This document shows positions 1-63,131 of a stretch of DNA of 64,000 nucleotides, piece after piece. The notes under the pieces were generated by a model, which saw only the letters and a list, made by a program, of their open reading frames with translations, was not told the DNA's origin and searched no databases. Position numbers and translations under genes: made by a program. The stretch's first letter is position 1. Every line of letters starts with the position of its first letter. Origin of the DNA: Vermamoeba vermiformis (taxonomy: Eukaryota); assembly GCA_045837725.1 (NCBI GenBank), contig JBEWZL010000124.1, positions 496,001 to 560,000 on the forward strand. The letters run 5' to 3'.

Positions 1-194
1 GAGCGAATAAAAGAAATTGTGTGAACAGTAAAATTAGGTACCAAATACAAGATCCAACTTGACCACCAATGATGTAGAAAATCTTATGTACTATAAATTC
101 AGAAAATGATCTTCAATTTGTAAAATAAGTTTTCCTAGTTCATTAGTCTTTTTTTGTCAAAATGGTATTAAAGTTATTAATTTACTGACCGCAT

Positions 195-3647: not shown

Positions 3648-4941
3648 CTACAAATACATAATATTCAGCAACAATAGCCACACCATGGAGCCAACGACAG
3701 CTACTGTTAATGACGATGCACCACTGCCATAGACGTTCGGACTCAAGGTAACAAATGGTACTGAAATTACCGAGTCAGGATTGGTATTACTTGCAGGGGT
3801 CAATGGCTTGGGCGAACTAACTGGCGTTTGCTGCTCACTAGGAGTCGCGGGCTCTACTTGTGCAGGAGGCATCATGTCCACTCCAACAATTTGGTTGAAA
3901 CTGAAGGCTGTGTCTGCGCGCACGATGAACTTGCCAGTCACGTTGACATTACTATAACGGGCAATGGAGCCAATGCCTCGTGTGCCACTGAACATGAACT
4001 CTGCAGCACTGCCAGTCTCGCCCGTGGTAATGTCAAAGTGTTTCAATCCAGCGCGTGCGTAAGACCCTGAAGCCAGTACCCAACGAAGCTCTGCACACAG
4101 GTCAACATCCTTGTCCGTAGTATAGGATAGCATATAGCACTTACGCGCATAGTGGTACATGACATAGGTCTGTTGTGCGTTCCATACGATAACGATCTGG
4201 AATGTGTTGAGGGGATCCACACTGGGTGTTCTCGAGTACTTGGACACACGCCACCAAGTACAAGAAATGACAAACTCGCCTGTGAATGTCTTCTCGGACC
4301 CGTCTCCAAGCCCAGTGCGTGGATACAACGTTCGTACCTCTTCAGTGGCACGGTTGACAATGGTTGCATCGGCCGTTGCTCCGAACCAGATCTTGTTACT
4401 TTCATTCGGTATAGCCGTGGTTGTATCGACGTCTATACCATAGTTATTATATATCCTGACACCCGAAAGAAAATGCGCGCATGTATTACCTGCCCAGAAT
4501 GCAGCAATGAGAGGCAGCGGCGATGAATTGTTGAGCAACGAGTAACTCGTGCCAGTTGGAAAATAGCTGGTAAAACTGGCCAAACCATTCGAAGTGAAGA
4601 ATATAGTATTGTAGTTGACATCAAAGAATCTATATCTGTTAGTGTCTTGTTAGATTTGTTTGTGACTTACCTCAGGTTGACTCCAAAATAAAAGCTAACA
4701 CCAGCATCATCAGTGTCCATTAAATTGGTAAAATTGAAATCTCCGGTACCATATGGATAGAATTGTGTCGTAGGATACCCTATTGCATTGGTACAACTAT
4801 CAAAATGTCAGTTTATGTGACTCGAGGGGATGTGGTGGCGTACTTACATCGCTTGATTGTATGAGCAAACTTGAGTCGCGTTGCATATGTAGTCCGCGTT
4901 ACATGGTTGTTGTGCTCGAACAAAACTTGAGATAGAAGCAT
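3648..4941 (-). CDS. NIDO-domain cell-surface protein with Pro/Ser/Thr stalk and hydrophobic (GPI-like) C-terminus; 5' end uncertain
   Basis: Spliced FYPYG..DD..RFFDVNYNTIFFTSNGLASF, LIAAFW, NTFQIVI, TYVMYHY and SNVNVTGKF match the NIDO pattern; tail LTVAVVGSMVWLLLLNIMYL. Confidence 0.75.
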
Positions 4942-9147: not shown

Positions 9148-10793
9148 TTACAAGATCTGCAACAAAACAAGCACAAAGACTAAGAGCATCACGCTAGTGA
9201 TAGATACCGCACTGGAAGAGATGCGAGTGGATGGCGAAGATGACGGAGAGTTAGGTCGTAGGAACTGGATCCGCTTGGTGCATCAACTGATGGCTGGTAC
9301 TGGTACACTTGCGCAGGCATTTGGTTGCCCAACAACTCCCAAATATACGATGTTAGAGTGATCTCATTGATGCCGTCTAGTTGTTTGCCAGAGGAACAAA
9401 ATCCACGCGTGACAGATTGACACATCTCAGCTTTGATTCGATCTTCATTCGGCCACGGCCACAAGGGCGTCGTCGTCAAAGCCTCGTAATTACTATCTCC
9501 GTAGCGAGATCCGTCGGTTCCATAGCGATACACAACATTCGCTCCAACATCACCGCCGTCGAAACCAGATCCCTTCAAGAACGATCCGTCTTCAATGCGC
9601 ACGATGTATTTGAGTGCAACAGGCGAGCTCTTAGTCGGGTCAGTAGTAGTCACACCGACAGTTGCAGTTTGTTGATTGAAGTCGCTTTCACCAGATCCAA
9701 ATACATTGACGTAACTCGGCGTGAACTTCGAATTGATGCCGTATCGACCAGCGCGATAAGCAAGGATATTACGAACTTCTCCTGAAGTGATTGAATCGTC
9801 TGGAGCCACTCTGACGCCATCAGCAGTAGCATTGAATGCCGTCAGACTTTGATACAATATGTTGGAGCCCATGCGCGCAATATTAAAGCCAGTGTCAGAG
9901 GAGCTGAATGCAATGCTGTTGATGACTGTGAACGTCGGGTCCAAGATATTGTCTGGCTCGAGGTAGAAGCCTGCGTCAGGCGCATTGACGGAGATACATC
10001 CGAGCCACTTGTTTCGACCGTTGTACCAATTGACGTCAGCAGTGTGCTGGGCTGCTGCGAAGTCCGCGTAAGGCTCTGCACCTGGTGCTAAGACGCGGTC
10101 AACGACAACCACGTTCTCAATGGAACAGTCGTGCGAGTCATAGACGGTGAAGCCGACATTAGGATTGCCACTGCCCATGCACTCGTTGACGACGTCACAT
10201 CCATCGCCACGCACTACAACACGGCGCCACACATTGTGATTGGCGCGGTAATTCCCAGAAATGACTCGTCGATTCGTGCCCCAGATCCAGCAATCTTCAA
10301 CCAAGTTGTATTGATTGTCGTCTTGATGGTCATTCGTGCCAATCCAAAAACTGCCGTTGAAGCCACAGTCTTTCACCGTGCAATAATCACAGTTGTAGAT
10401 CTCACTGTTGCCAAGAAACGTGATGCCTTGGACTACGATATGCGTGTCCTTTCTCGTTGAACGACCGATGAAGAGCCCCCCGTCAACGAATACAGAGCCA
10501 GGGTGTTGTGCACGAACGACTGTCGGCGCTGCTTGCGTTCCTGAAGGAGGTTGAGCGGATGCAGTGCCATCCCACGTAATCAAGCCCGTGCCCGCTGCTT
10601 CGGAGTAAGTTCCGTCCATCAATAACAATTCGTCGCCACCAGTCATCGAGCCAAATGCTTTTTCGAAGGATTTCCAAGGCGAAGAAGATGATTGACCGTT
10701 ATTGTTGTCAGATCCCGTTGGCGAGATGTAATAGGTGGTGCCGCCCAAGGCTGAGTAAGTAACCAACGCCAATAGAAATAATATTTTAATCAT
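9148..10793 (-). CDS. Secreted right-handed parallel beta-helix (pectate-lyase-like) protein, intronless, probable GPI tail after a frameshift near 9260
   Basis: Signal peptide MIKILFLLALVTYSALG; TYYISPTGSDNNNGQSSSSPWKS..GGDELLLMDGTY; a shifted frame gives ...SSSAVSITSVMLLVFVLVLLQIL* ending at 9148. Confidence 0.8.
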
Positions 10794-11945
10794 GACTCGA
10801 ACAATTGTGGCGTTCAATGTCAATTTTAAGTGAAAATGAATCAAATCAATGTCAAAAGTCCTGTCGTATGCAACAATTCAAAAGAGGACTTTTTCAAAGT
10901 CCAGATTCTCTTTTAGTATCCTAATATATGCTGCAAACTGATCTAGCATACAATATTACAAATTTCCATCAATGAAATAACTTAAATTCGCCTCGTTAAC
11001 GTCAGTAACCGAATCTTACGAAAATCAAATCTTCAGCATTTTCCGTTGTTTTAAGGTGCTACTAACAATGAAAAACAACGTCGAGTGGCTAATAATATTT
11101 AACATAGCCCTTCTGAATTTGCCAAGGGTGACCGCAGATCCGATCGTAACTTGACTTCAACAAAGTATTCGATGAACCGTACTTTCAATGGCTCGCTGGT
11201 GGTGGTTGGCCAATACGTACGTCGACAATAATATTGTTATTATGTTGTTAAATGGTCATTATTTTATTGCCTGCAGATTAATATATTAACTGACAAAATT
11301 TTTTTGGTATTTTTTCCGGGAACAAAAACCCGTTTCAGCAATTCCTGGCGCTACTCCAGTCGCCATGGATACGTTGACTAAGGCACTAGTGTTATCATAC
11401 ACTCAATGGACTGGCTTCAAACAGATTTTAGGGGGCATGTGCAACACGACGGATCTGGTCGGAGTTTGTACCCGCATAGTTGGCCACATGTTGTTCGATG
11501 GAACGTGCTTTCATATGACCGCAGATGACATCGCTCATCAGCTAGTGTAGCGTACACAACAATTGTACGGTGGTCCAATCGATCGAACGAAAACGGCATG
11601 TGTAACTTGTTGCCAACATTGTCGGCAAATGTGACGCATCGGGTACAAGCCGCTACTTCATTGATAGTTTACAATAATAGATTTCGGAGAGCATATCAAG
11701 TGGCTAAATGATTGTACGACGCGTTACTGAAGATTGAGTGATCGCATTGGTGCTGAGTCGTACTCAACCGGAATTAAGGTAGCAGAAGAATTTTCGGGGA
11801 TGTTTTTTTTTTTTTTTACCCGGGTTGGGTGGTCAGCCCCTACCCGGCACTATAAACGCCACAGTTTGGTGGTTTGTAGTTGAGTTGAATAATTGACAAG
11901 GACCGCGAGAGCGATTTCCGTCACGAAAGGGCTCCGTTTCCTCTA

Positions 11946-21441: not shown

Positions 21442-23449
21442 TTATATTATCAATGAAGTACAAAGAGCCAGCAAGATGCATAAGTTGGGCAGTAAGCCAA
21501 GGGAGGCCAAAGAAGCACGTTGCATCAACGAAGGAGCCTGTGCAGTGGGATTGCTTCCTAAGGGGGAGAAACCACCGCCGGAAGGACTGGCCGAACTGGT
21601 GGGACCAACGGAACCAGTTGGACTTGAGGAGCCAGTTGGACTTGAGGAACCGGGACCAGCGACAGGAGGCACGTACCAGCCACCAGGAGGAGCTGCTGCG
21701 TATTGATAGGCCCCCAGATCCGGTGTAGACGGGCGAGGCAATCCTTCGAGATCAAATGCTGCAACATCGCGGGTGTCAATGCCCGCTCCAATGGCCGGTG
21801 AGTTGGCTTGCAAGTGGAAGTTGTACGAGGACCGGTCTACGAACAGAGGATCCTGAGTGACCGCTGCCTGATCCCACGACGGAGCATCTTGACCGTACCA
21901 CAAGTTATTCTGGTAGTCAGCACCGCTCGGAGGTTGTTGTGAATCTCCAAGCAAAACAAACGGACCGAATGAAGGGTCCTGTGAGATGATATTGTTGTGG
22001 AAAACAATGCGTGCATTGGGATAAGGAGCGAAGTACACAGCGGCAGTGAAACCGCACGTAGATGCTAGGAAACCGCTGTCGACCACCGTGTTTGAGTAGA
22101 TATAGATGGTTGTCTCAACGCCGGTCGTCCACCCGACGAATATTTGAAGGCCTGTTTGACCAGAGCAGCCTTCAGGTCCTTCAGGTCCCAGACCAGCATT
22201 GTAGATCAAGTTGTTGTAAATGTAGTTCTTGTTTCCTGTCATGTACGGGCCTGCTAATATACCAGCACCACGTTGATTGATGATCACGTTGTCATGAATG
22301 TAGTTCTCCTCGAAATAGCCTGAATTGGTGCCTTCGCTGTAGAAGTTGACAGCGCAGTAGACGTAATTGTCGTGGAAGTAGTTCCAGGCAACCACCTTGT
22401 TGTACTCTGTGGGCAGACGGGGACTTGATTCTTGTCGTTCCGATTGAAAGTAAAGCACGTGCTCCAGCTTGGACACGGTAGCGGCATTTGTCTGAGCTGT
22501 GTGCAGCAATTCGTTTCCGGCGGCTGTCAAGTTGTTTCCGGAGCCTGCAATGATTCCGGATTGACTGGCGTCGTAGACCTTCTTGCACTCGAATCTGTTG
22601 CCAATAACTCGCCATCCGTCGTACATGGGAATTCCAGTCTCTATTGTACCTACAATGTTGAGCTTTGCCATGGTCCAGTACTTTGTGCTTCCGATGCCAC
22701 TGACGAAAGTTCTTACTGCGCGGCAGTCATCCGAACCAATACTAACGGTCGCTCCTGGGTATCCAATTAAAGCCGAAGACAACCGGTACGCTCCTGTAGT
22801 ATATCCTATTAGTGTCAAGTATATTTCGTAATGCTGGTAAGGAGTACTCACCGTCGACCTGGGTATCAATGCAACCGTCGAGCACTTGCTGGGTAGCGGT
22901 AACACCATCAAGCGCGTAAACAATATCACCCTTTTGCATCTTGTTGAACGCTCCATTGTAAGCAGAGTTGATAATAGTGCGGAACGGACTTGTCCAGGAA
23001 CCTCGTCCATCTCCATCGGTGCCCGATGGGCTGACGAAAATGATTGCGCCAGTGTCTCGGACATAGAAGGGAAGGTCGTTGGAAGTTTGACCGTCGACCA
23101 CGACATGAATCGTCTGGTCTCCTAGCGGAGTCGTTCCGGCAATCTGGAATGCAATCATCTGCATGCCGTGAGAGGCGTAAAGGTTAGCTGGCTCGGTTGC
23201 GTCGCTCCAAGTGTAGACAACTGGTGCTTCGACCCCTCCGCAATACACTTTACTAGTGCCTTGCGAGGAACCAAGGTATTTTCCCCAAATCGTGACGATG
23301 GCTCCGTGCGTACCAGCTGGCTGCCCTTGAGAGGTATCTGAATTCCCAGAGCGCGGACCATCCGCCAAGTCTGAAAAAAAGAGGATGGGGGATTGCGCAG
23401 CCACGAGTTGTACTACAAAGACGAAAATTAAAGCGGTTTTGGTGTTCAT
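21442..23449 (-). CDS. Secreted IPT/TIG + parallel beta-helix protein with choice-of-anchor-Q-like motif and GPI-like tail; one intron (~22808-22851)
   Basis: Signal peptide; PILFFSDLADGP..GAIVTIWGKYLG; IYNNLIYN/IYSNTV repeats; DPLFVD..NFHLQANSPAIGAG..DLEGLPRP..PDLGAYQY; Ser/Pro stalk and hydrophobic end. Confidence 0.85.
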
Positions 23450-24868
23450 AGTAGAGTATACGTAAAGAAATGGATATAAAAAGAATTTTTAAATTTTACG
23501 TTCTTGTTATTTTCTGGATTTAAACTTTTTTACCGGCTATTTACGGCTCGTGTTTACTTTTTATGGCAACTAAAGCGGGGCGAATTTACAATTCGAACCA
23601 GCGGAGGTCAAAAAGGCAACTAAAGCGGACTTGAATCGGCCGCAGATCTGCGGAGCCTATTATTAATTTGTACTGGCTCTCAAGCCTCTGTAGGCAGTGT
23701 AGTTTGAAGGAATAGAGTACTATCTGCCGGTAAAAGTCGGCTGTAGCTGTAGCGGCCATTACCGATCGATAAATTGGCTGCAGTCTCAAAATTGAATCTG
23801 AATAGATGTCGCCTCATCTCAATGTAGTCCGACGACCCGTTTACGACTCAGGGCCCTGCCAAGTCAGTGTGCCTTTGTACTTTTGCATGCCACGCGATCT
23901 CGATGGCGATCGATAGTTTCTTGAGCCAATTGAGTTCGGGCTCTTATTTCAACAAGTCATATAATTTACCATTAGGGATGAACTAGTCACACGGCGAGGC
24001 AAGACACCTAAAAATAGAACGACGTTCGGAGTTTGCTGCCAGTGAAATCTCTCGAAGGAAGGACTCAAAACTCGCAGCAGACAGTGCACTCTTGAGCATT
24101 TTGACAGCAACATCAATTCCGTGCCAAGTGCCCAAGAACACGTCGAAAAAAGGCCCTCCCGATCTTCGCCGTCGTTATAGGCTATTTCCCTTTGAAACGG
24201 ACTCCCCTTGCGCTTGATAGAGTGGCAAAGTCGAGGAGCTGCATTGAAACGTGTTAACATCGAGGATCATCCGTGCACAACACAACAGTTGTTGTGGGGA
24301 GTGTTGCAGTGGGAGTGGCTGGGATTGCAAGGACACGTAAATTTAAAGCGAAGAATGTTCGAGTGAATATTACCGTGATCATTGAGGCTGTTGATGTTCG
24401 CTCTCGATCAGCGCGCGTACAATCGCCACGTGACGCTAATGCTCGGTGAATAAAACCAAGTCGACATTACTCGATTCACAGGCTCATATATCGCAGATGA
24501 ATGACTTGTGTATTTACCTTCCAACACGCGTAGCGTAGTGGTGTTTCGCCGTGGAGATTTTGGGCGTCAATACGTCAACGCACCTTTCTTGGTGAATATG
24601 AATTATTCGTGATGCAATAAAAAAAAAGGGCTATATCGAGTAGCAACTATAGATAGGTGTACATTAATTACTGGTACATAACTAAGCTTGCACGAATTTT
24701 TGAAAAATTGAATTAAAAACTATTAAGCTTAATTACCAGCAATGTTAGGCTGCATCAAAGCATATGAAACACCTCCTTATTTTTGCTATAAAAAATCTCT
24801 TTGTAAGCCAGGTTAAGTACTTGTCAGTGTTGAGTCGTGGATGGACAAAAAACTTCTATTAGAGCTTA

Positions 24869-28122: not shown

Positions 28123-28443
28123 TTACAACCGGACTTGGGCATCGACAAACCCATCTACTTCATCAAATGACTCCCTACTTGTGGTTTTGGCTGAGCCAAA
28201 TCAATATGCTATCTGTATTAGTGTGACGTTAGTAAATATGTATTCATTCAAATGGATGTTAAGTTTTCCGTTTCGTTCGTTGGCTCGTCGATTCAGATTA
28301 GCCGCTTCGTCATTAAACAGAAATTACTTTACGCATAGGCAAGGATACTAAGGCATGAACAGTTAACTCTTCGGAGAGAAATGTCGAAATGAAGGCTGTA
28401 CATATTAACGACAATAAACTTGTAAAACTCGGCTTTATGTTCT

Positions 28444-31400
28444 TCACCACTTAATTACTCTCTTTACATGGGACAATTCCTCGTCATACTCTTCTTGAGT
28501 TATAACTTGTTGTTCGAAAGTACTTCTTGACCCCAAAATTGATCCACCAATCCAAGCTGCGCGTCTTTCCGCCTGAATAATTTCGATCTTGGTCTTCGGT
28601 GCAAGTGCTTCCAGCTCTTTATGCAGGCGCTGAACCATACCTTTGAATCTAGTATTACCACCTACCAAGACGATGTTGCTGTAAAGTTCGCTTCGGATGG
28701 TCGGGTCACACTTTTGAATTGCTTTGTGGATCATCTGATGCATGCCAGGTATACTCGTTTTTCCGTTCAGGTGACGAAGCAAAGATGGTTTAAATAATGT
28801 CTCGGTGCATTGAAATCGAGCTGAGCTGATATAGATGATTGAACCATCTGGCATTTGGTGCGTCTCTTGTCTTATCGCTTGTCAGCTCTGTTTCATCAAT
28901 TGCCACTCGACCAAGCTTCTCTTTGATGTCATTTGCAGTATTAGGGTCGGCGTTAGGAATCAATACTGACAAATAGAATGCCACATCAATGCCACCAAGT
29001 TCGTAGACTCCAACAGCGTGAGAAATGCCATAGCCTTCGTAGATTGGTACTACTCGTGTGTAACTGTAGCCAGATTCCAAACAAGACCTGTACGACGACC
29101 AGTAGTGATCAGGGACAAGGCTGCTGTTGAAGTGAGGTGCAAAGCTGGGACATTGAAACCTCGTAACATGAGCCCAAGTAGTGTCTCTTTGTCTGCTTGT
29201 GATGTATCATGCGCGACAGCAAGCAAGACTGGGTACTTAGAAAGCCATTCGTTCACGTCAACTTCAATGCAAAGATCTTTCTGGAAGATGTCCCTCAACA
29301 TCATCTCAAAATCGTTTTGATTCGTCACCTTGCCATCTACCATGGAACGTCTCAATAACTTGTATCTCGAGCTTTGAACTTCGCTGCCAATGTACAATTT
29401 CCGTAGATCATCTGCGGGTGTAGCAAATCCACGTTTAATCTCTCCAACAAGGGCAGGGAATTGAACAACCGGGTATGAATCTCCTACTGCTCCTACATTG
29501 ATTGTAGACGAGTTGAGTGTGATGACAATTGCTCTCACTGAGTCGGGATCGCGGTCATTGAACGCGACAGGATAAATCAACCCCTTCTTCGGGTTTTCAG
29601 GCTCCGGCTCTGGTTCTGGCTCAAGTTCTGGCTCGGGCTTGGGGTCTTGATTTATCTTGGTGCTTAATGGCTGCACCGCTTTCACTTCGGGCTTTGGAGA
29701 CGCTACTTTAATCTCGGGCTTTGAAGGCTCAGCTTTAAGTTCGGGCTTTGGAGGTGCGACTTTGATTTCAGACTTTGGAGGCTCTGCTTTGGTCTCGGGC
29801 TTTGGAGGTTCTACTTTTACTACAGACTTTGGAGACTCTGCTTTAATTTCAGGTTTTGAAGGCTCTACTCTGACTTCTAACTTCGGAGGCTCTGATTTGA
29901 TCTCGGGTTTCGAATATTCCGCTTTAAGTTCGGGCTTCGGAGGTGCGACTTTGATATCAGACTTCGTAGGCTCTGCTTTTGGTTCGGGCTTCGGACTCTC
30001 TGCTTTAATCTCGGGCTTTGCAGGCTCCGCTTTGAGCTGAGGTGAAGATTTGGAAGGCGTCAATTTGTGAATTTCATTTTTCAACTGCTCGTTCTCTTGT
30101 TTAAGTCTTTGGCCGTCTTTCTGAGCGGTATCGAGACCACTCTTTACTGTTAAAATGTCTTGTTCGTACTGCTTGTTAGTTTGACGCAACTTGTTCAATT
30201 CGTTGTTCAGTTTGAGAATCTCGGCTTGACCTTCTTTCTTGAGCCTCTCAATCTCTAGTTTCTTTTGTTCGTCCTCTCGTGTCTTTTGTTCAACGAGCTT
30301 TCTGAGATCCAATTCGACTTTTTTGCTGGTCTCTAACTGTTCTTTGACTTTGGCATCGTTTGTTTGCATCTGCTCGATAGTGCGTTTGAGCGTAGTGATC
30401 TCTTCGTCCTTTCGCTGAACTAGCTCTTGCTGCGCTTGTTCGTTCCTATTGCTCGCAACTAATGACTCCTTCAGCTTTGTCTCGCGGACCGACATCTGAC
30501 TGATCTCCTCTCTCAGCGTTGCAATCTCAGTGTCTCGTTGTTTGCATAGCTGCTCGCTCTCATGAATCGTGTTCTGTAGCTCTAGTTCGACGTGCGTGAA
30601 CGATTCTAATCTTTGTTTCATCTTCGTCTCGTTGTCTCGTAGCTGTCGTATGGCCTCCTTAAGCCTGGTAATCTGGCCATCTTTCTGCTCTGCCAATGAC
30701 TGTGACTCTCGCTCTTCTTTCTTTTTCAACTCTAGTTGCGTAGCCAACTGATCACAGCGAAGTTTAAGCGCCGCTGCTTCTTTCTGGACCGCTGCCAAGT
30801 CGTCGCCCTGCTTCACGTAGTCAGCACACAACGAGTCGTAATCCTTCGTTTGCTTGAGCCAATCGATCTTTTGTTGGGCGTTAGTGTAGTCGATCTTCAA
30901 ATTGTCTAGCTGCTCGTGCAACTGTTCGATGTAGGCGACGTGCCTTTTGACCTCTTCAGTCCGATCTTGGTTCAATCGCTCGAGTTGTTTTATCGTAGCT
31001 CGGTAGCTGTCGCACTCGGCGCGCAGTTGTTCCATAGGCCTTAGTTGTTCCGCTTGAGAGTACGAGACACTGTCATTGAGCGCGATCGTGGACTGAGCAA
31101 TTTGAGAAGTACTTCTGGGCTTGGCGACTGCGCTAGAAGCTGCACCCGCAGTGTTGTTGGTTCTACTCGCTAATGCATGCAATCTATTCACCTTATTGCG
31201 CAAGTTCTTAACTCTCTCTTGTAACGCCAAGCTTAATTTCTTCATTTCGTCAGCTCCAAGTAAGTCATCAGATCCCACCACCGAGGAATCAAACTTTGAC
31301 CCAAAGTTATTAACTTCAAAGCCTTCGTCAATCATCATGCTTTCGCCTTGGGGTGACTCGCTCTAAAATTTGAAGTGTCAAAATTGCGAATCCGAAATAT

Positions 31401-31618
31401 ATATAAATAATTGCAATAATTACATTTAGTGACGTCTGTGGAGTGGTTCGCCTGTTGATTTTATTAGTATCAATGTTTAAGTATTAAATAATAACGTACT
31501 TTTGAATTCGCACCATTGCTTTCTGAGTAACTAGTTGGATCAGCAGCAAAGAGGAGACGGCCAACGCCGTAATTCCCCAGTAGTAGATAAACTCCACTTC
31601 CATTCCAAAATGTATCAT
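28444..31618 (-). CDS. N-terminal TM helix - long coiled coil - 9-aa K/P/E repeats - divergent actin domain; two 5' introns; frameshifts near 29080 and 28860
   Basis: Upstream exons splice in frame (YYWGITALAVSSLLLIQLV..IQK/RTTPQTSLN/SESPQGESMM); actin motifs FPALVG, FNVPALH, TGRRTGLV, VVPIYEGY, DIKEKL, MPDG, ELYSNIVLVGGNT, AWIGGSILGS, ITQEEYDE. Confidence 0.85.
29672..30035 (-). repeat. Coding tandem repeat of about 13 x 27 bp (KPEIKAESP-like)
   Basis: KPEIKAESP/KPEPKAEPT/KSDIKVAPP/KPELKAEYS/KPEIKSEPP/.../KPEVKAVQP. Confidence 0.9.
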
Positions 31619-31916
31619 GGTTGTTATAAAAAGTGAACAAGGGTAAAAAGAATAGCTCCGAAGAAAAAAAAGCAGTTTTCTACCGAAAGAATTTGACCGA
31701 AGAAATCTGAAGAATTCTTTTCCGCTCAGGAGCAAAACCTTCAACGGCATTAATTAAAGCAATATATATGACATCAATAAAGGTAATTCTTGCCTCGAGT
31801 AGAGCAAGCAGCTTTGATTTAGACCAAAGTCGGAAAAACTTGCAAAGTGAAGTTCGTAGTGGCCCTAACTGACATTATTAGTTCGAATAAGATTTATATA
31901 ACACAAAAATACAAGA

Positions 31917-32675
31917 CTTAAGCAGTCATCTGAGCGCCGCTGTTGTCGTTCAAGTTGGCCAATTGCAACGCTGCGTTCTTGCCCTTGATGCCTTCAGGGT
32001 CATTCGGTTTCACGGCAAGCGGTCTGTCGTACAATTCAACGCCACCGGACGCCGAGAGATGACAGCAGCGGCAGCGCAGGCCTCAGGCTCTTCAGGGAGC
32101 ACTCCAAGACAGCACATCGTCCAGACAGACACGGAAAACCACAGCACCCAACTCTGGCGGCAGAAGCGATGAAAAAGAACTGGCGCCGGGACACGAAGGA
32201 GGACTTCCAGGGAGAGGGGAAAAGAAAGGAAGAAATGGGGAGGGAAAAGAGGATGGGAGGAAAGAATAGAGAGGAAGAAATATAGAGAGAGGAAAAACGG
32301 ACTTAAAGGCCGTGGGGGCTAGAAGGAAATAAGGAGGGTAAAAAAAAAAAGATAGAAAAAAAGTGAGGGAAGAGGGCGGAGAGGAGGTGAGGAGGAGAGG
32401 GGGAGGGAGGTAGGGGAGGAAGGGGGAAGAGGGATAGCGAGTTAAGAGGGGAGAGGGAGGGAGAAAGAGGAGGAAGGCCAGCGGAAAAGAAGGGAGAAAG
32501 GAGAACCGAAGAAAAACTTTAGGAGAGCTGGGGCTGGGCACCAGAGAGGAGTTGGAGAGGTGGGGAAAAGAAAAAAAAGAGGGGACGCCCCTGCTAAAGA
32601 GGGAAGGGAAAAAAGGGGGGAGGCCGCGGAGAAGGGAGGGAAAGAAAGGAGGGGAAGGGAAGAAGAGGGAAAGGA
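31917..32675. other. Partial duplicate of the 3' end of the TPR gene, decaying into a G/A-rich low-complexity tract; probable assembly or basecalling artefact
   Basis: 31917-~32150 matches 32720-~32960 with progressively more errors; ~32200-32675 is almost entirely purines. Confidence 0.75.
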
Positions 32676-32720
32676 TCTCGCGTAGAGTAAATAAAGAATT
32701 TTAACATAATTTACAAGCCT

Positions 32721-34937
32721 TTAAGCAGTCATCTGAGCGCCGCTGTTGTCGTTCAAGTTGGCCAGTTGCAACGCAGCGTTCTTGCCCTTGATGCCTTCGG
32801 GGTCATTCGGTTTCACGGCGAGCAGTCTGTCGTACAATTCAACGCCCCCGTTGTAATCGCCGAGACTGACTGACAGTTCAGCGGCAAAGCGCAGTGCCTC
32901 AGGCTCTTCAGGGAGCATCTCCAAGACACGCTTGAAGCACTTGAGTGACTCGGCCTTGCGACCAGTGTTATATAATACAAAAGCCTTGTTGAACCAAATC
33001 GTGTAGTCGTCTGATTGGAGCTCCAAGGCCTTATCGAACAACTTGATGGCCTCTTCAGTCTTGCCCAAATGGTTGAATGCTGAAGCTTTCGTGGCCCAGG
33101 CGTACTCGTAGTTCGGATTCATTGAAATGGCGTGATCAGCTGCTTCAATGGCCTCAGCGTACTGCGACATCTTGATCAACATGTCAGCCTTGTCAGTCCA
33201 CAACAAGTATGACTTGTCGCGTTCTCCTTGCAAGATCAACGCGTGCTCAATTGATTGCAAAGCTTCGGCGTATCGTTGCTAAAAAGATACCGTTAGAGAA
33301 TGTTACGCTTGCGTTATTAGTCTAAAGCTTACCATCTTCTTGAGAACTTTAGCTTGCAATTGCCAAGCAGCAATGCTCTTCTCGTTCAATTTCAACAACG
33401 AGGTCAAGGTCTCCACTGCTTGCTCATTTTGACGACTAATAAATTGTTAGCCTGGCGCTAATGATCATAGGCCATCGATACGTACTCCATAAATAAGCAT
33501 GCAGCCTTGTTCAACAACAGTTCTTCGTTCTTTGAAGCACTGGGTGACAACTCAAGTTCTTTGTTGTAGCACTCCAGGGCCTGTTTCCAGTGACCCAACG
33601 AGTAATGAGCCTTCGCCTTGCAAGCCCAAACCTCAGCACTGTTGGGATGAATAGCAATTGCGGCATCAAGAGCATTGATTGCCTCAGCGTAGCGACCAGC
33701 GTCATCTGTGAGACGCGTTATTTCCAGTCATTTTTTGACACTTTGACACGTGTCATAACGAACTTACTATGAACCATGGCAACAATATGCTGTGCCTTCC
33801 AGTCCTTGGGGTTGAGTTCCAACGAGCGGTTGAATGCCTTAAGTCCTGCTTCACCGTCATCGAGCATCAACAAACAGTAACCCAAGCCAAAGTGCGCTTG
33901 GGCACAGTCAGGATCTAATTCAGAGGCCTTGGCGTAACATTCCTTAGCCTCGCTATAGTTCTTCTTGTCCATGTACAGCGTGGCCATTGTGTTCCACGCG
34001 TCAAAGTTCTTTGGATTCAACTCGGTGGCACGTTTCAGTTCGAGCAACGCGCCTTCAATTTTTTTCTTTACATATGTCAGTACGTGGTATAAATGTAGTC
34101 AACGCCTTCTCTTAATTACCTGGTAAATGAACACGATGCCCTTATTTGTGTGAGCACGATCGTAGTACGGATCGAGTCTCAAAGCAGTCACCAAACAATC
34201 CAAAGCTTCGTCGTACTTCTTCATACGAATATACGCAGAGGCTAAAAACAATGTCAACTATCTGAATATTATTAAATAATTATTGTAATTCGTACCTTTG
34301 TTATTGTACGCGATCGGGGTTCTGGAGTCGGTTGCTATCGCCTTGTCAAAGCATTCAATAGCTTCTTCAAATCTCTTTTGCTCCAATAATTCGTTACCAA
34401 TAGATATCCAAGCCTCTATAAATAAAGAATGAGAATTAATTCAGTTAAAGCAATAAAGATCAGATGAGCTCAACGGTTGGATAAGATCTTACCGAAAGCA
34501 AGAGGACGAGGAGGGTCTTTTTTAAATGACTTGCTAGTCTCCTTTGCATTGGGGTCAGGGCTCGCGAAGAATGTCCGCTCTGAAATTGTGTAAGACTAAT
34601 TTTCAGCGTGGAATTGGGATCAGCAGTTAAATAGGAATTTAATATCAATGATTGGTAGAAGGGATAATTCCAAAAATGGTAGTGTGTATTGGCAAATTGA
34701 ATTTTTTTAATTTAGACAATTATAGTAAGCGGATCTTGATTTTATGATAAAACGATAAATCGTAAACTTACTCTGAACGGTTCCAAAAACCTTCTTTGAT
34801 CCACGAGACGACAATAAATTATTTGTTCTAGTCAATGGATTCTTTTGGACATTGTTTTGACCTCGCGAAACTATGCGTGTGCTGAGTCCATCTACAGCTT
34901 CGGGAACACGTTTTAAATTCTGATAGATGGCACGCAT
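32721..34937 (-). CDS. Multi-TPR protein with possible mitochondrial presequence, multi-exon
   Basis: Many TPRs (AWISIGNELLEQKRFEEAIECFDKAI, AWATKASAFNHLGKTEEAIKLFDKAL); the basic Ser/Arg-rich first exon splices to ..VQKRTFFAS.. (5' exon less certain). Confidence 0.82.
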
Positions 34938-40446: not shown

Positions 40447-43400
40447 ATGCATTTCAAGTTATTGATCAATAATCAAGAAGCGAAACGCATCCCGTTCCCC
40501 AAAGGAACGCAATGCATTTTCGGAAGGTACCTACTAATATTCACGATAATAATACACGTGCTAAATTAAATGAATAGGAATATTCGATGCGATGTACGAA
40601 TCCACTTGCCATTCGTATCCAGAGAACACTGCAAAGTGACGATTGAAAAGAGCGGAAAGGTTCGTTACAGGATGAATTATAGATTATTTTACGCCATACT
40701 AAGCTTATTTAAAGGTTATGCTCTTTAATTTGAGCCAAACCAACTTCACTCTCGTAAACGGTCAAATTGTGCCTCCAGAGGGCTGGCGTTTGAAAGATTG
40801 GGACGTCATCTCCATTTGCGGCGCACACTTCTTGTTCTCCTTCGATTTTCCATACAGCCCAAAGGTACGCTGACCAGATTTCTATCGGCGAAATTCCGAT
40901 CTAACAATTATTGCCTTTCAGAAACAATCACCCACAACTACTGTGGCCAGAAATGTATCGCCCAGCGCAGCCAGCCGTAAAATCGACTTCGAGTCCGATC
41001 CAGCTGCAAAGGTTGCTGATGTTGAGAAACGAGCAGCAGATTCGGTCATTAAACCAGTCCTCGAAGTGCCCTCTTCTGCTCGTAAGGGAGGCTTACAACG
41101 ACAAAGCACTCTTCTTTTCGATGAAAAGAGTATCGAACCCGTCTTTAAGATGCCTCTTGCCCCGGCTTCAAGACCAAATCCATCAGTCGAGATCAGCCAA
41201 CCAGTACAAGACGTCGCCGTGAACACTAAGAGCGAGATCATTGCTCCAAGCACTGTCGAGGCCATCGTCCAAGCAGTGGAGGCCAAGCCCGAAGAAAATA
41301 TTGTCGAGACTTCAGAGCAACTTGCACGCGAAGAAGTCCCAGTCGTTGAAGAAACTGCTAAAGAAATCATCACAGGAGAGGCTATTGAAGAGCCTAAAGC
41401 CGCAGAAGAGCACATCAACACCGTTGTTGAAGAGAAAGAAATCGTTGCCGAAGCAGCTCAAGAAGAGGAGACTGCCAAGCCTATTGAAGAAGTCATTCAA
41501 GAAGAGAAGATTGAAGCCGCTCCCGTCGTTGAGAGCCGCGAAGAAACTGTCGCAGAGTCAGTGCCCGAGAGCATTCAATTGGACATTGTCAGAGAAGAAG
41601 AACAAGTCAGCGAGGCCGTTGAGTCTGCCCCCGTCGATGAGCTTGCTACTGAATCCGCCGAAGAAGTTGCTGCTAAGCCTTTGGCCGAGGAGGTTGCTAT
41701 CGCAGCTGACGAGACTAAGACTGAAGAAGTCATCGAGCAACTTACCCCTGTTGACGAGCCTGTCGTCGAACAAGTTCAAGAAATCACATCCGTCGAAACT
41801 AAAGAAGAGACCGTTATTGAACAAGGCTCAGAGGATATTCCTATTGTTGAAGAACAAGTTGCCAGCGAGCCTGTTGAAGAAGTCGTTGCCGAGTCCAAGA
41901 GCAGCGAAGAGGTTGTTGAACCTGCTGTCGAGACCGTAGAAACCGCGGTCGAAGAAGCTATTGAGACCATTCAAGAGCAAGTTGTTGAAGAGCCAGTTCA
42001 ACATGAAGTTGTCCAAGAGGTTGCTCAAGAACAAGTCGAAGAGGTCAAGGACGAAGTCGTTGAAACTGCCGTCGAGACCGTTGTCGAAGAGATCAAGCTT
42101 GAAGAGGTTGTCCAAGAGACCTCTCAATCTGTCGAGGAGGTCAAGGCCGAAGAGCCTGTTGCTCAAGAGGTTGAACAGCCCGAAGAGATCATTGAAGCTG
42201 CTCAAGTTGAAGCCTCTGAAGTCAAGACTGAAGAGCCTGAAGAGACAGAGCGAGTCGAAGAACAAATCGAAGAGGTCAAGCCCGTTGAAGAGACCGAACA
42301 AGTTATCGAATCAGTCGTCGAGCAAGTCGATACTGAAAAAGACTTTCCTGAACTTGTCAACGATATTGTTGAGACTGTCATCGAAGAAGTCGAGGAGCAA
42401 GTCTCCGCAGTTGAAGAGCCCGAGCAAGTTGTTGCCGAGTCCTCTGAAGTTATCGTCGAAGAACCTGTTCAAGAAGACAACGTCGAGCTTATTGAGGCCG
42501 CTGAAGAGACTTCTGTTATCGAACAAGAGACAACGGAGGTTGTCAATGAAGAGGCTGTCATTGAGACATCGTTCGTTGAAGAGAAGGTTGAAGAAGTTCC
42601 CGAGACTGAAGAGATCTCCCCTGTCGAGGAAGAGAAGGAAGTCATCGAACAAGTTCCTGTTGCCGAAGAGACCGAGACCAAGGAGACTGAAGTGGTTGAA
42701 GCTGCTCAAGAGACTTCTGACGTTTCTCTCGTGGAAGAGATTACTCGCGATGAGCCTGTCGCCGTTGAAGAACTCAAGCTCGCTGATGAAACTATTGTCG
42801 AAGAATCAAGCGAGAAGGTCGAGGCCATTGAGCAACAACCTGAGGTCGCTGACAAGATCGTCTCTGAGACTCAAGTCGAGGTCGAAGATGTCAAGACTGA
42901 AGAAGTGGCTCAAGACCAAGTCGTTGAAGAGTCTGCAGCCGAAGAGTCCTTCATTCATGAGGAAGTTATTGTTGAGGCTTCAATTGACGCTGAAGAAGCC
43001 ATCGTCGAGGACAACAAGATCGAAGAACAAGCTGAAGAGGCTGTCATTGAGTCTGTCGTTGAAGAGAGCGATGAGAAGGTCGAGGACGTTATCGAGTCCA
43101 TTGAGACTGTCATTGAGACTGTTGAACCCGAAGTCACCGAACAAGTCAACGAGAGCGTGATTGACGCTGTCGAGACCGAACAGGTCAACGAGTCTGTTGC
43201 CGAGCCTGAAGAGAAGGCCATTGAACAAATTGAAGAGGCCTTCATCGCTGAAGAAACTGTCGCTGATGAAGTCACTGACAAAGTCGACTATCTTGTCGAG
43301 ACCATCGAGGACGCTGTTGTTGAGCAAGAAACAACTGTCAACGAAGAGGTTGTTGAGCAAGAAGCGACTGAGACTGTCATCGAAGAGGCTGTCATTGAGA

Positions 43401-45077
43401 CTTCATTCGTTGAAGAAAAGACAGAAGAAACACTCGTCGAAGAAGTTGCTCCTGTTGAAGAGACCAAGGAGTTCGAAGTTGTTGAACCCGCTCAAGAGGT
43501 CGCTGAAGTTGGCGAGCCTGTCGCGGAGATTGTCGTCGAAGAGCCTCTTGAACAAGACCACGAAGAGGACGAAGCAATTGTTGAAGAGGACGTTCAAGTC
43601 GTCGAAGAGATTGCTGAGGAGAAGACTGAAGAGCCTGCTGAACAGCAATACGAAGTCACTGAGACTGACAATGTTGTTGAAGAGACATCTGTTGTTGAGG
43701 CCACCGAAGAAGTCGCTGAAACTAGCCAAGAAAAGGTCGTTGACGAAGAGGTCGTCGAGACTTCAGTGCACAACGAGAGCGTTGTTGAAGAGACCGAAGA
43801 AGTGACTCCTGTCGATGAATTGGCTCAGGATGAAGTCGTTGAAGAGATTAGTCTCGAAGAAGAGTTGGCTCTCGATGAGTTCGACATTTCATATGGCTAC
43901 GACCACATCGCTGATGACGATGAAGATGAAGAGGTCGATGACGCTGTTGTTGAAGAGCAGCAAGAAGCTGAAGAAGTCGTTGAGTCCACCATCGCAACTG
44001 AAGAAGTTCAAGAGACCGCTGTCGAGGCTGCCGAAGAGATCGCTGAAGAGCCTGAGACCGTTGAATCAACTGAACCCGTTGAAACTGTGGCTGAAGTCGG
44101 GGCTGCAGTTGAGCCTGTCGACGAGATCATTGAAGAGTCTGTCGTCGAAGAGGCTAAGGAAGACGTTGTTGCTCAAGAAGACGTCCTTGTGCAATCTGAA
44201 GAGCCCGTCGCTGAAGTCGCTGAAGAGTTAGTCGCTCCCGAACAAAGCGAAGTTGACTCTGAAGAAGTACATGCCAGCCAAGTTGCTGAAGAACAAACTG
44301 AAGTCGTGCAAGAGGCCATTGAAGAAATTGCACCCATTGATGAGCCTGAAGAAAAGGTTCAAGAAGTCGAGTCCGTTGAAGTTCCCGAAGAAAAGACTGA
44401 AGAACAAGTCCACGAGTCTATTGTTGACGCTGAAGTTGAACAACAATCCGAACAGCAAATTGAACCCGAGCACGTTGAAGAGAAGATCGAGACTGCTCCT
44501 GTTGAAGAAAAGACCGAACAAGTCGTCGCTCAAGAAGACGTCCGTTGTTGTTCAATCCGAAGAGACCATTGTTGAGGCTGCCTCTGAGCCCTCTGAACCT
44601 GTCGTTGTTGCCCCTGCCCACGAGACACCTGTCAAAGAAAAGCCCGAGTCACGCTCAGCCTCACCGTCCTCTGACTCCCGTTCAGCAGATGAGAGCTCCG
44701 AGCACGAACAAGACACTGACGAGACTAACACTGGTGCTCGTGACGAAGAGCCTGTTGAACAGCCGACTCGTGGCCGAGGCCGCAGAAAGGCAGCTGAGCC
44801 CTTGACACGTGTCAAAGTGTCAACGCGTGCCAAGCGTCAAGCTCAAAGCGAGAGCTTCGATAAAGAAGAGAATAAGGGCGATAGTATTGATGTGGATGAC
44901 AAAGAGAACGCGAGTGCGAATGTCATGGCTGGTCCGAGCGGATCTGCAATTTTCAACTTGGAAGAGCTCAAGTCATATCCTCGTAAAAGATTGCAACAAC
45001 TCTGTAAAAAACATAATATCAAGGCCAATTTGAAGACTGAAGAGCTGATCCAAGAGCTCTCGAAATTGACTTACTAA
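40447..45077 (+). CDS. Ki-67-type FHA domain + ~1200-aa Glu/Val-rich disordered region + C-terminal SAP-like motif; three 5' introns; frameshift near 44543
   Basis: Spliced N-terminus CIFGRNIRCDVRIHLPFVSREHCKV..LFNLSQTNFTLVNG..RLKDWDVISI joins ORF 40943 in frame; C-terminus LKSYPRKRLQQLCKKHNIKANLKTEELIQEL. Confidence 0.85.
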
Positions 45078-62000: not shown

Positions 62001-62665
62001 GCCGTTTGAATCTTCTTGATTGCTGCTAGAGCGGACGGCTACACCAAGAGTGCCTTGTCGTTGTGCAAGAAACTCGTCAATGGCGCTAAGCAATGCCTCA
62101 GAAACTGGATGCGCAAGAATCCGAGCTTTGATATCTTCGCATTGCTGCGAGAAGTCTATTTGAGTGAAAAAGTTAGAAAGCTATTTATAATTGGTATAAA
62201 TTTCTTCTTTACATCAGAAAAATTTTTACGGTTCTGAGTTTGAAAAAAGCTAAATTTGTAAAGAAATTTGAAAGTACCTGTAGATCCGTTCTCGGCAGCG
62301 GCATTGTTCAACTCTTCGATCAACTCGTCTGCGCCACTGTTGCGGATATGCTCTTCGTATACCCGGGTTGTAACAACGAAGCCAGTCGGAACATCGAATC
62401 CGAGAGCTATCAGATTCGACAAGTTCAAGCCTTTGTTGCCCAACAGGCTCGCATCGACTTCAGCAGCCTCTTTGAGTGTAGGAAAGTTAGTAGCAACTGC
62501 ATCGATGCGTCGCTGAGGAAGTTTTGGGGTTCGAGCATTGTTGGTACTTCCTCGTCCAAACTTTGATAAGAAGAAGGCACTAACGCCGAGTCCAGCGACA
62601 GTAAGTACCTTCTTAATATCAGAGAGTGCGGGAGTGAGTTGAGGTAAGGTTGTATTAGCTTGCAT
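59053..62665 (-). CDS. Rifampin-phosphotransferase/PigC-architecture enzyme (PPDK-type ATP-grasp, helical substrate domain, C-terminal phospho-His swivel), multi-exon
   Basis: LGNKGLNL..VPTGFVVTT, VAVRSSSNQED..FAGQFDTYLN, MAVVIQEMV, SGVAFT, PQDIEFA..LFLLQARPIT; C-terminal GGALTHAAITARELNIPAVV..VRVNGTTGEV; no PEP-binding barrel. Confidence 0.9.
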
Positions 62666-63131
62666 TGGTGACGGTAAGTTGCGATCGGAATGATTGAAAA
62701 AAGATGTCGCAGTGAACGTGTATTTAAGGTCGCTTCGGGCATGTGATACGTTCACTGATTTCCTAGATTGACCGGGGTTTGACTTGATTTCAAAAAAATT
62801 GGGTAGATCCCCAAAAAATCCCCAAAAATCTTGGTTTGACCCCAAGCGAATTCTATGAAGCCCCAAAATGAAAAAGATAATTTTAGATATTATAAATTAT
62901 ATTATTAAGTTCCTAAGCTCGCTAATTTCTGTTTACCAGTTTTTGCCGTAGCGTGCTGCAATCTGCTCAGGTTCTTTTGTAGCTTCTCAATCAAAGAGTG
63001 AGAACGCAGACCCGCTCAATGTCTATAGATAACATCTTTTGACTATTCTGAATTAAACATTGGAGTTGTGTTCAACGTTGGGCATTGTAAATTGTGAATA
63101 ACAATTTGGTATCGTGAACAACAGCTTAATT

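What the first reader, a model, noticed from the sequence alone, without database searches (positions are those of the whole stretch)
28444..31618. Membrane-anchored coiled-coil protein tipped with a degenerate actin domain
Seen: a hydrophobic N-terminal helix on two small upstream exons, ~400 aa of coiled coil, a K/P/E repeat linker and a complete but divergent actin fold. The phosphate loops are altered (DNGSG to TLNSST; DSGDG to ESGYS) and the actin part has no introns. Inference: an actin retrocopy was captured and is displayed at a distance from a membrane, as a tethered nucleator, a cap, or a decoy for actin-binding proteins and toxins. It differs from Arp1-10 and from filamin-actin fusions.
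Basis: partly seen in the sequence, partly recalled or inferred. Interest (0 to 1): 0.7.

Follow-up and report, generated by a model that had tools for sequence, protein, structure and literature searches.

The report
Membrane-anchored coiled-coil protein ending in pseudo-actin
This is a real gene of a small amoeba-type family whose protein is anchored in a membrane by its first helix, extends a long coiled-coil stalk and a springy linker, and ends in a complete actin fold that has lost the ATP-binding loops; the copy in this window carries two one-base frame breaks that its close relatives lack.

Summary
On the minus strand, 28444-31618 encodes a hydrophobic N-terminal helix, about 400 aa of heptad-rich helix, a 9-aa K/P/E repeat and a full actin fold (Pfam PF00022; model TM-score 0.89-0.91 to actin). 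Contigs of a coded run (X4) join the helix exon, a 28-nt micro-exon and the main exon through two GT-AG introns. A Vermamoeba vermiformis transcript protein (P0007, 796 aa) has the same helix, stalk and C-terminal actin in one complete ORF, so this is a conserved family, not a chance chimera. Both frameshifts exist in the window (29079/80 and 28871-4), but are absent from all three read-derived versions laid on it and from a 98% identical 955-aa protein (P0001). Whether they are assembly errors or a very recent private inactivation is open. The P1 loop has lost D11 and G13, which 29 and 30 of 30 divergent actin-likes keep, so ATP binding is probably lost in this lineage, but perhaps not in Vermamoeba. 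'Retrocopy' has no support. The most likely role is an ATP-independent actin-like head tethered to a membrane. That mechanism is inferred, not shown. Four full-text literature searches found no description of this architecture.

The parts
31500..31618 (-). Exon 1: start codon (ATG at 31618, or the in-frame ATG five codons on) and the hydrophobic signal-anchor helix. Its core of ten residues is identical in P0007.
   Evidence: KD19 peak 1.63; N-flank charge -2, C-flank charge +4; X4 contig reaches into it through the joint at 31499/31500
31452..31499 (-). Intron 1, 48 nt, GT..AG
   Evidence: joint 31450>31499 (cut +1); splice-site context
31424..31451 (-). Micro-exon 2, 28 nt. It encodes a polar linker and restores the frame.
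31363..31423 (-). Intron 2, 61 nt, GT..AG
   Evidence: joint 31362>31424
28444..31362 (-). Exon 3: the rest of the coding sequence up to the stop at 28444-28446, with no further intron
30064..31257 (-). Helical stalk with heptad periodicity (P0001 residues 28-425), broken by short low-confidence hinges
29569..30057 (-). Disordered K/P/E-rich linker. It holds the 27-nt (9-aa) tandem repeat at 29678-30033, followed by a P-E dipeptide run. Its length varies between versions (27-nt and 6-nt in-frame differences).
   Evidence: (table 4)
28447..29544 (-). Actin-fold domain with all four subdomains. The phosphate loops are degenerate and subdomain 4 is slightly shortened.
29079..29080 (-). Frame break 1: one base is missing in the window relative to all other versions. 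A stop follows at 29050-29052 in the shifted frame.
   Evidence: C put in behind 29079 or 29080 in both X1 variants and in X4
28871..28874 (-). Frame break 2: one extra base in the window relative to all other versions. It returns the reading to the original frame.
   Evidence: one letter left out at 28871 or 28874 in both X1 variants and in X4

Best explanation
This locus belongs to a small, conserved family of amoeba-type eukaryotes.

Shown:
- The gene is spliced from three exons.
- The protein starts with a hydrophobic helix and continues with about 400 aa of heptad-rich helix.
- In this lineage a 9-aa K/P/E repeat linker follows.
- The protein ends in a complete actin fold.
- The same order of parts occurs in a transcript of Vermamoeba vermiformis.
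- In the window's lineage the first phosphate loop has lost D11 and G13.

Inferred:
- The helix is a signal anchor with its short acidic N-terminus outside and its basic C-flank inside, so stalk and actin head face the cytosol.
- The stalk pairs two chains.
- The linker acts as a flexible, titin-PEVK-like spacer.
- The head no longer binds or hydrolyses ATP and cannot polymerise as a normal subunit, because its pointed-end loops, hydrophobic plug and lateral contacts are poorly kept, and subdomain 2 is deleted in the Vermamoeba protein.
- The head keeps the barbed-end groove better than its overall identity would predict.

The most likely working model is a membrane-to-actin tether. The head docks through the groove side, either on the pointed end or side of filaments, or on proteins that bind that groove.

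The two 1-nt frame breaks are private to this assembly's copy. They are either consensus errors or a very recent inactivation of one allele. Both readings stay open, with some lean towards error.
For: Gene model and expression:
- X4's contig joins the three exons through two GT-AG introns, and the frame stays open.
- P0001, a 955-aa protein from a read assembly, is 97% identical over 753 aligned residues and runs through both break sites.
- P0007 is marked as a complete ORF of a Trinity transcript and is named by the collection as Vermamoeba vermiformis.

Family:
- P0007 and P0001 align from the motif after the helix to the C-terminus.
- The helix core of ten residues is identical between the window model and P0007.
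- An AU test does not reject the two actin domains as one clade. p-AU is 0.706, and the constrained tree is 15.2 lnL better than the free quick search (25 rows, LG+G4).

Fold:
- pLDDT is 90-98 over most of residues 590-955.
- TM-score to actin is 0.89-0.91.

Topology: the N-flank charge is -2 (window) and -1 (P0007). The C-flank charge is +4 and +2.

Nucleotide site:
- 9 of 28 listed positions are kept in P0001.
- That is 0.32 against a minimum of 0.46 among 30 divergent actin-likes.
- D11 is kept in 29 of those 30 and G13 in 30 of 30.

Surfaces:
- The barbed-groove set is kept at 18/31 and 20/31.
- The pointed subdomain-2 set is kept at 2/16 and 1/16, the plug at 5/13 and 2/13, and the lateral set at 2/18 and 3/18.

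Frame breaks:
- Both are absent from both X1 variants (their depths add up to the full depth) and from X4.
- A second apparent 1-nt frame break in another gene of the window (about 44543) hints at indel errors in the assembly.
Against: - Binding to actin, dimerisation, membrane insertion and location are all untested.
- The contrast between barbed and pointed faces is generic. The 30 divergent actin-likes have medians of 0.55 and 0.25 for the same sets, so it may reflect fold constraints, not a kept binding site.
- The residue sets used for the interfaces and the nucleotide site are recalled from the actin literature, not taken from a call.
- P0007 keeps D11, G13, S14, K18, Q137 and H161. Loss of ATP binding is therefore not a family trait.
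- The KD peak of 1.63 is only just above the usual 1.6 mark.
- X4 is listed as 'RNA? (a guess)'. Its splicing is the only sign that it is RNA.
- The two RNA raw-read runs with the same species label as X1 gave 0 and 1 laid reads, which is no test of expression.
- The window differs from all laid versions by private substitutions as well (for example 28985, 30658, 30660, 30679). It is therefore a distinct haplotype or strain, and the frame breaks could be real.
- Neither break is a plain homopolymer-length error.
- Only two family members were found.
- The full tree of 58 rows was unresolved and did not pair the two proteins.
Confidence: 0.5

Rival explanations
1. The copy in the window is a recently inactivated allele or paralogue of the family. 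Both 1-nt indels are genuine, translation stops at 29050-29052, and about three quarters of the actin head is lost. Other copies in the population or genome stay intact.
For: - Both indels are in the window sequence.
- The window carries private substitutions against all laid versions, so it is a separate haplotype.
- The indels are not simple homopolymer-length changes.
- X1 shows at least two diverged variants of the locus at similar depth (about 311 and 324), so there is redundancy that could tolerate the loss of one copy.
Against: - The 137 codons downstream of the second break are identical in protein to P0001, so any decay would be very recent.
- Neither indel is seen in any of the three read-derived versions.
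- A second apparent frame break in an unrelated gene of the same window suggests assembly indel errors.
Confidence: 0.4
2. The head is an active filament nucleator. The stalk brings two actin-like heads together as a seed, as Arp2 and Arp3 do, and filaments grow from the membrane tether.
For: - The heptad-rich stalk could pair two chains.
- The fold is complete.
- The barbed-groove residues are kept better than the average position.
Against: - A seed must offer barbed-end or pointed-end contacts on both heads. The lateral contacts (2/18, 3/18) and the plug (5/13, 2/13) are poorly kept, and subdomain 2 is deleted in P0007.
- No ATP site remains in the window lineage.
- Nothing was tested.
Confidence: 0.15
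3. The hydrophobic helix is a cleaved signal peptide or a lumen-facing anchor, so stalk and actin head lie outside the cytosol and act as a surface or secreted decoy.
For: The helix is at the extreme N-terminus, as signal peptides are.
Against: - The charge distribution is negative before and positive after the helix in both family members. By the positive-inside rule this puts the C-terminal side in the cytosol.
- The ten-residue identity of the helix core across 37%-identical proteins is unusual for a cleaved signal peptide.
- No signal-peptide predictor was available.
Confidence: 0.05
4. The gene model is a chimera. The helix exons or the actin part belong to neighbouring genes, or to a decayed actin copy next to a coiled-coil gene.
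For:
- P0001 as predicted starts only at the internal Met-Met, without the helix.
Against: - One open frame links stalk, linker and the first 150 residues of actin in the window itself.
- X4's contig joins the helix exon to the main exon.
- P0007 holds all parts in one transcript ORF.
Confidence: 0.02

Closest known systems
[quoted passage not shown]
   Same: An amoebozoan protein of about 940 aa with a compact actin domain at the C-terminal end of a long extension. [quoted passage not shown]
   Different: Filactin's actin domain is described there as extremely homologous to conventional actin. The domain here is 38% identical, with a degenerate P1 loop. Pfam finds no filamin or other domain in the extension here. 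Filactin has no N-terminal membrane helix as far as I recall.
Primate POTE-actin chimeras
   Same: A helical region followed by a C-terminal actin domain in one protein. The nearest Atlas cluster is 'Actin/CCDC144C coiled-coil' at 0.89, which is a lead only. PMC3690210 notes that some primate actins also contain the POTE ankyrin domain, and its reference list holds Lee et al. 2006 on chimeric POTE-actin genes (passages).
   Different: By recall, POTE-actin arose by retroposition of a near-identical cytoplasmic actin into an ankyrin-repeat gene. Here there are no ankyrin repeats, the actin is old and divergent, there is a membrane helix, and the lineage is unrelated.
N-terminally anchored coiled-coil tethers of the ER (kinectin, ribosome-binding protein p180/RRBP1): recalled, not tested
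   Same: A short N-terminus, one membrane helix, then a large cytosolic part made of a tandem short repeat and/or a long coiled coil.
   Different: No sequence relationship was seen (Pfam finds only Actin). Those proteins end in coiled coil, not in an actin fold.
Interaptin and KASH/nesprin-type linkers (recalled)
   Same: A membrane anchor, a long rod and an actin-engaging head at the far end. This is what the protein most likely works like.
   Different: Those have a calponin-homology actin-binding domain at the N-terminus and the anchor at the C-terminus. Here the order is reversed and the head is itself an actin fold.
Arp11/Arp10 of dynactin and other orphan Arps (recalled)
   Same: Actin folds that do not polymerise on their own and sit at one end of a filament. 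Some have degenerate nucleotide sites.
   Different: They are stand-alone proteins of complexes. No orthology to any Arp was seen: the 60 PDB matches shown, of 149, are all conventional actins.

Membership tests
Actin superfamily, Pfam PF00022 | Profile match above the curated cut-off | tested here: met
   Window pieces score 61.8 and 144.1 bits against a cut-off of 27. The middle piece scores 23.4 on its own. P0007 scores 237.9 bits.
Actin superfamily, Pfam PF00022 | Complete four-subdomain actin fold | tested here: met
   The AlphaFold2 model of P0001 has pLDDT 90-98 over most of 590-955. Foldseek gives TM-score 0.89-0.91 and rmsd 1.8-3.0 A to actin chains. P0007 lacks most of subdomain 2.
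Conventional (polymerising, ATP-hydrolysing) actin | Intact phosphate-binding loops and catalytic residues (D11, G13, G15, K18, Q137, D154, H161; list recalled) | tested here: not met
   P0001 and the window have T, N, S, N, T, E and R at these positions. D11 is kept in 29 of 30 and G13 in 30 of 30 divergent actin-likes.
Conventional (polymerising, ATP-hydrolysing) actin | Kept D-loop, hydrophobic plug and lateral contacts (sets recalled) | tested here: not met
   2/16, 5/13 and 2/18 identical in P0001; 1/16, 2/13 and 3/18 in P0007. These are at the low end of 30 comparison rows.
Named Arp classes (Arp1-Arp11) | Closer to one Arp class than to actin | tested here: inconclusive
   The 60 matches shown, of 149 solved matches, are all actins. 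Arp scores were not displayed. The tree held only unnamed sequences.
Filactin | Filamin-type repeats in the N-terminal extension and a near-conventional actin domain | tested here: not met
   Pfam finds only Actin in the 770-aa ORF and in P0007. The actin domain is 38% identical to actin.
POTE-actin | Ankyrin repeats upstream of the helical region, and an actin part nearly identical to cytoplasmic actin | tested here: not met
   No ankyrin match. 38% identity to actin. The Atlas score of 0.89 is below its own 0.9 mark.
Processed retrocopy | Intron loss limited to the inserted part, a poly-A remnant, and target-site duplications | not tested
   The intron-free exon also covers stalk and linker. 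The parent gene's structure is unknown. Flanking marks were not searched.
Single-pass signal-anchor membrane protein (N-out, C-in) | One hydrophobic stretch of about 19 or more residues with more positive charge on the C-terminal flank | tested here: met
   KD19 is 1.63 (window) and 1.91 (P0007). Flank charges are -2/+4 and -1/+2. This is a prediction only. Insertion is not testable with these tools.

The most novel reading that the evidence does not exclude
Tubulinean amoebae have a so far undescribed class of cytoskeletal anchor. It is a membrane-inserted, dimeric coiled-coil stalk with an elastic K/P/E spring, and it presents two ATP-independent actin-fold heads. The heads seize or seed the pointed ends of actin filaments at an organelle or plasma membrane. 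The cell would thus use an actin fold itself, rather than an actin-binding domain, as the membrane attachment point.
Probability: 0.2. Interest if true: 0.8.

Novelty: new variant of a known kind. Interest (0 to 1): 0.6.

Why it matters
Actin folds fused to other modules are rare; filactin and POTE-actin are the known cases. I found no description of one hung on a membrane anchor through a stalk. Cells normally attach filaments to membranes through actin-binding domains or nucleators. A tethered, ATP-dead actin fold would be a different solution, and a natural tool for asking what an actin fold can do without nucleotide turnover. The family is small and amoeba-restricted so far, which limits its reach. 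One member comes from Vermamoeba, a common water-system amoeba.

Tried and rejected
- Whole-genome search: no genome is held for this window.
- Earlier scan notes: three look-ups gave nothing relevant.
- Word-indexed protein searches:
  - The N-half of the actin domain found only P0001 (1 hit among 575 candidates).
  - The P0007+P0001 profile found only P0007 among the 8000 candidates scored; the coiled-coil words swamped the candidate list.
  - P0007 residues 1-200 found only itself among 1703 candidates.
  - The family may therefore be larger than seen. Lengths outside 423-1672 aa were not searched.
- The exhaustive HMMER search lists only the best 150 of 11277 hits. Members with weaker actin scores would be hidden.
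- Metagenome contig scans: 40 and 476 pattern matches, none confirmed by tblastn.
- Complex prediction of the P0001 head with a conventional actin (P0017 residues 1-375): score 0.00 in both runs, controls not run, no verdict either way.
- Tree of 58 actin-like rows: unresolved (1 of 55 inner branches starred), and the two family members were not paired. The AU test on that set did not finish in three runs. It was redone on 25 of the 58 rows with a simpler model. I chose the 25 rows to span the first tree.
- RNA raw-read runs X22 and X24: 0 and 1 reads laid, which is no test.
- Synonymous versus non-synonymous count on the 40 substitutions shown, of 178 in all: 18 synonymous (one of them stop to stop) against 22 non-synonymous. 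They lie mostly in stalk and linker, with only one inside the actin domain (28985, synonymous). This is too partial to bear on selection on the head.
- SAP-like tail of the neighbouring acidic protein: no Pfam match.
- A 24-nt or 23-nt mini-intron at the frame breaks: rejected, because the homologous residues abut without a gap and the lengths do not give the needed shift.
Full report
**What is in the sequence**

The window is eukaryotic DNA with 38-50% G+C, long ORFs and short introns. No whole genome is held for it.

On the minus strand a 770-codon open frame (31362-29050) is followed by two further frames: 29206-28790 and 28881-28444. Pfam's Actin profile (PF00022) matches the three pieces in order:
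- positions 2-147, 61.8 bits;
- positions 147-189, 23.4 bits;
- positions 258-400, 144.1 bits.

The pieces abut without room for introns. The first switch is a missing base between 29079 and 29080. The second is an extra base at 28871-28874. The third frame is the same as the first, so the two shifts cancel. However, a stop at 29050-29052 follows the first shift.

**The upstream exons**

An ATG at 31618 opens a 119-nt exon that encodes a hydrophobic stretch. A 28-nt exon (31451-31424) restores the frame into the main exon at 31362.

Laying four coded public runs on 28200-32000 gave, in run X4, a contig with exactly these two joints. It skips 48 nt and 61 nt, and both skipped stretches read GT..AG on the gene strand. 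X4 is listed only as 'RNA? (a guess)'; the spliced contig is what shows that it holds cDNA.

The helix itself lies on the first of them only.

**The frameshifts**

Run X1 (DNA by guess, with the species label 'organism A') holds two variants of the locus at depths of about 311 and 324.
- At both break sites the two variants together make up the whole depth.
- Both carry the base that the window lacks, and lack the base that the window has extra.
- X4 does the same (table 4).
- A protein from a read assembly, P0001 (955 aa), is 97% identical to the window's long ORF over 753 residues and reads straight through both sites.
- Apart from these two single-base sites, every indel inside the coding sequence keeps the frame: 6 nt and 27 nt in the repeats, and a 33-nt skip at 30212-30246 in the stalk (X4 only, listed as a joint). 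All other listed indels lie in introns or downstream of the stop.

The breaks are therefore private to this assembly's copy. I cannot tell whether they are errors.

For a real mutation:
- The window has private substitutions against all laid versions, so it is a distinct haplotype.
- Neither break is a plain homopolymer-length change.

For an error, or at most a very recent event:
- The 137 codons after the second break give a protein identical to P0001.
- A second gene of the window shows an apparent 1-nt frame break at about 44543. There an E/V-rich ORF stops ten codons later, while the same composition continues in the next frame.

**A conserved family**

An exhaustive HMMER search of 1.84 billion representatives with P0001 returned mostly actins and tandem actins (the best 150 of 11277 are listed). 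It also returned P0007, a 796-aa protein with three matched stretches.

P0007 shares these features:
- It begins with a hydrophobic helix whose ten-residue core is identical to the window's exon 1.
- It has a conserved motif after the helix and several conserved blocks along about 350 aa of helix.
- It ends in an actin domain (Pfam 237.9 bits).
- It has no K/P/E repeat.

The collection marks P0007 as a complete ORF of a Trinity transcript and gives it a EukProt accession of Vermamoeba vermiformis. That species belongs to Amoebozoa, Tubulinea.

Overall identity to P0001 is 37%, so the fusion is old and is kept in expressed genes of two well-separated lineages.

The actin domains alone do not resolve in a tree of 58 rows. 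On 25 rows, the tree that holds the two together is 15.2 lnL better than the free quick search, and it is not rejected (p-AU 0.706). Long-branch attraction could contribute to that result.

Three word-indexed searches and two metagenome scans found no further members. Each has the limits listed under Tried and rejected.

**The parts**

AlphaFold2 on P0001 with a 51-row alignment gives:
- five long helices between residues 28 and 425 (pLDDT about 75-87), separated by short low-confidence hinges;
- no structure in 428-581 (pLDDT about 30);
- a confident actin domain (pLDDT 90-98 over most of 590-955, lower in subdomain 2).

A home-made heptad score exceeds the shuffled 95th percentile in 13 of 20 windows sampled between residues 21 and 401, and in 0 of 25 from 421 on.

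The linker is a 27-nt tandem repeat of 13.2 copies. Its length differs between versions. Its composition recalls titin's PEVK spring; that comparison is recalled, not tested.

Foldseek places the head on G-actin chains with TM-score 0.89-0.91. By sequence, the 60 solved matches shown, of 149, are all conventional actins, the best at 229 bits.

**What the head can and cannot do**

I aligned the heads to a conventional actin taken from the session's hits, P0008 residues 131-505. I then scored residue sets that I recalled from the actin literature.

| Residue set | P0001 | P0007 |
|---|---|---|
| Nucleotide-site positions | 9/28 | 14/28 |
| Groove between subdomains 1 and 3 | 18/31 | 20/31 |
| D-loop set | 2/16 | 1/16 |
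| Hydrophobic plug | 5/13 | 2/13 |
| Lateral contacts | 2/18 | 3/18 |

Overall identity to actin is 141 of 375 positions (38%) for P0001 and 138 of 375 (37%) for P0007. P0007 has lost most of subdomain 2.

A control with 30 divergent actin-like proteins changes the weight of this result.
- The contrast between groove and pointed face is generic, with medians of 0.55 and 0.25. It is therefore weak evidence for a kept binding site.
- P0001's groove still ranks above 21 of the 30, although its overall identity is the lowest of all.
- What is truly unusual is the nucleotide site of P0001. It scores 0.32, below the minimum of 0.46. D11 and G13 are replaced, although 29 and 30 of the 30 keep them.
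- P0007 keeps D11, G13, S14, K18, Q137 and H161.

Loss of ATP binding is therefore well supported for the window's lineage, but it is not a family trait.

**Topology**

Both family members have a short acidic N-flank (charge -2 and -1) and a basic C-flank (+4 and +2) around the helix. By the positive-inside rule this puts stalk and head in the cytosol, which is where an actin fold would be expected to act.

The strict conservation of the helix core suggests that it does more than span a membrane, for example pairing with another helix. This is inference.

**How it most likely works**

Putting the parts together, the most likely model has three elements:
- a signal-anchored, probably dimeric stalk;
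- a flexible spacer;
- an actin-fold head, held away from a membrane, that does not cycle nucleotide and lacks normal polymerisation surfaces.

The best-supported role is a tether. It would engage the actin system through the groove side of the head, either on filament pointed ends or sides, or on groove-binding proteins.

The rivals are as follows. A nucleating seed made of two heads is possible but disfavoured by the weak lateral and plug surfaces. A lumenal or secreted decoy is disfavoured by the charge pattern. A chimeric gene model is contradicted.

A complex prediction of the head with conventional actin gave no verdict and is not used either way.

**Comparison with what is known**

- Primate POTE-actin joins ankyrin and helical regions to an actin (passages of PMC3690210). 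The Atlas hit to this cluster scores 0.89 and is a lead only.
- By architecture, the anchor-stalk part resembles kinectin and p180-type ER proteins. By logic, the whole resembles interaptin or nesprin-type linkers with the order of parts reversed. Both comparisons are recalled, not tested.
- Four full-text searches listed no paper that describes a membrane-anchored coiled-coil protein ending in an actin fold. I read only listings and abstracts, plus passages of the two papers named above. Supplements were not consulted.

**Retrocopy**

Nothing supports it.
- The intron-free exon spans stalk, linker and head alike.
- The genome has many long intron-free ORFs.
- The fusion predates the split of two lineages that are 37% identical.

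**Verdict**

This is a new domain architecture within the known kind 'actin-fold fusion proteins'. It is expressed and conserved in at least two amoeba-type lineages. Its function is unknown but testable. The status of the window's own copy, intact or just broken, needs raw reads of its isolate.

Noticed in passing
window 31918-32082 (-) and 32721-33278 (-): The last ~40 codons and the stop of the TPR-repeat ORF (Pfam TPR_1 and related) occur twice, about 800 nt apart, on either side of a CT-rich low-complexity tract (32092-32700). X4's contigs cover 31883-32000. The downstream copy may therefore be the transcribed 3' end, or part of a duplicated terminal exon.
   Followed up: no
window 44537-44546 (+), within 40874-45077: A 1233-codon acidic E/V-rich ORF runs into a stop ten codons after about 44543, while the same composition continues in the next frame to 45077. 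This is an apparent 1-nt frame break with no room for an intron. It is the second such break in this window, so it bears on the assembly's indel error rate. The tail has no Pfam hit.
   Followed up: partly
window 9189-10877 (-) and 21442-23488 (-): Two similar large ORFs with hydrophobic N-termini that look like secreted proteins. The main bodies have no Pfam family. The N-terminal piece of the second gives a weak IPT/TIG match below the cut-off (19.8 against 20.9 bits). The second is split over two overlapping frames (overlap 22742-23121), so it holds an intron or another frame break.
   Followed up: no
window 3648-4649 (-): An ORF with a nidogen-like NIDO domain (66.4 bits). It ends in a hydrophobic tail.
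   Followed up: no
window 61017-62896 (-) and 182-1741 (-): A gene with a PPDK_N domain (pyruvate phosphate dikinase, AMP/ATP-binding) lies in pieces, with 158.3 and 37.9 bits. A gene with a PIG-L deacetylase domain also lies in pieces, with 29.5 and 31.0 bits. In each, the pieces are separated by in-frame stops where short introns are likely.
   Followed up: no
window 30212-30246 and 29725 region: The stalk and the K/P/E linker vary in length between versions by in-frame steps. X4 skips 33 nt at 30212-30246 and leaves out 27 nt at 29725. One X1 variant leaves out 6 nt at 29619. P0001 lacks one 9-aa repeat unit.
   Followed up: partly
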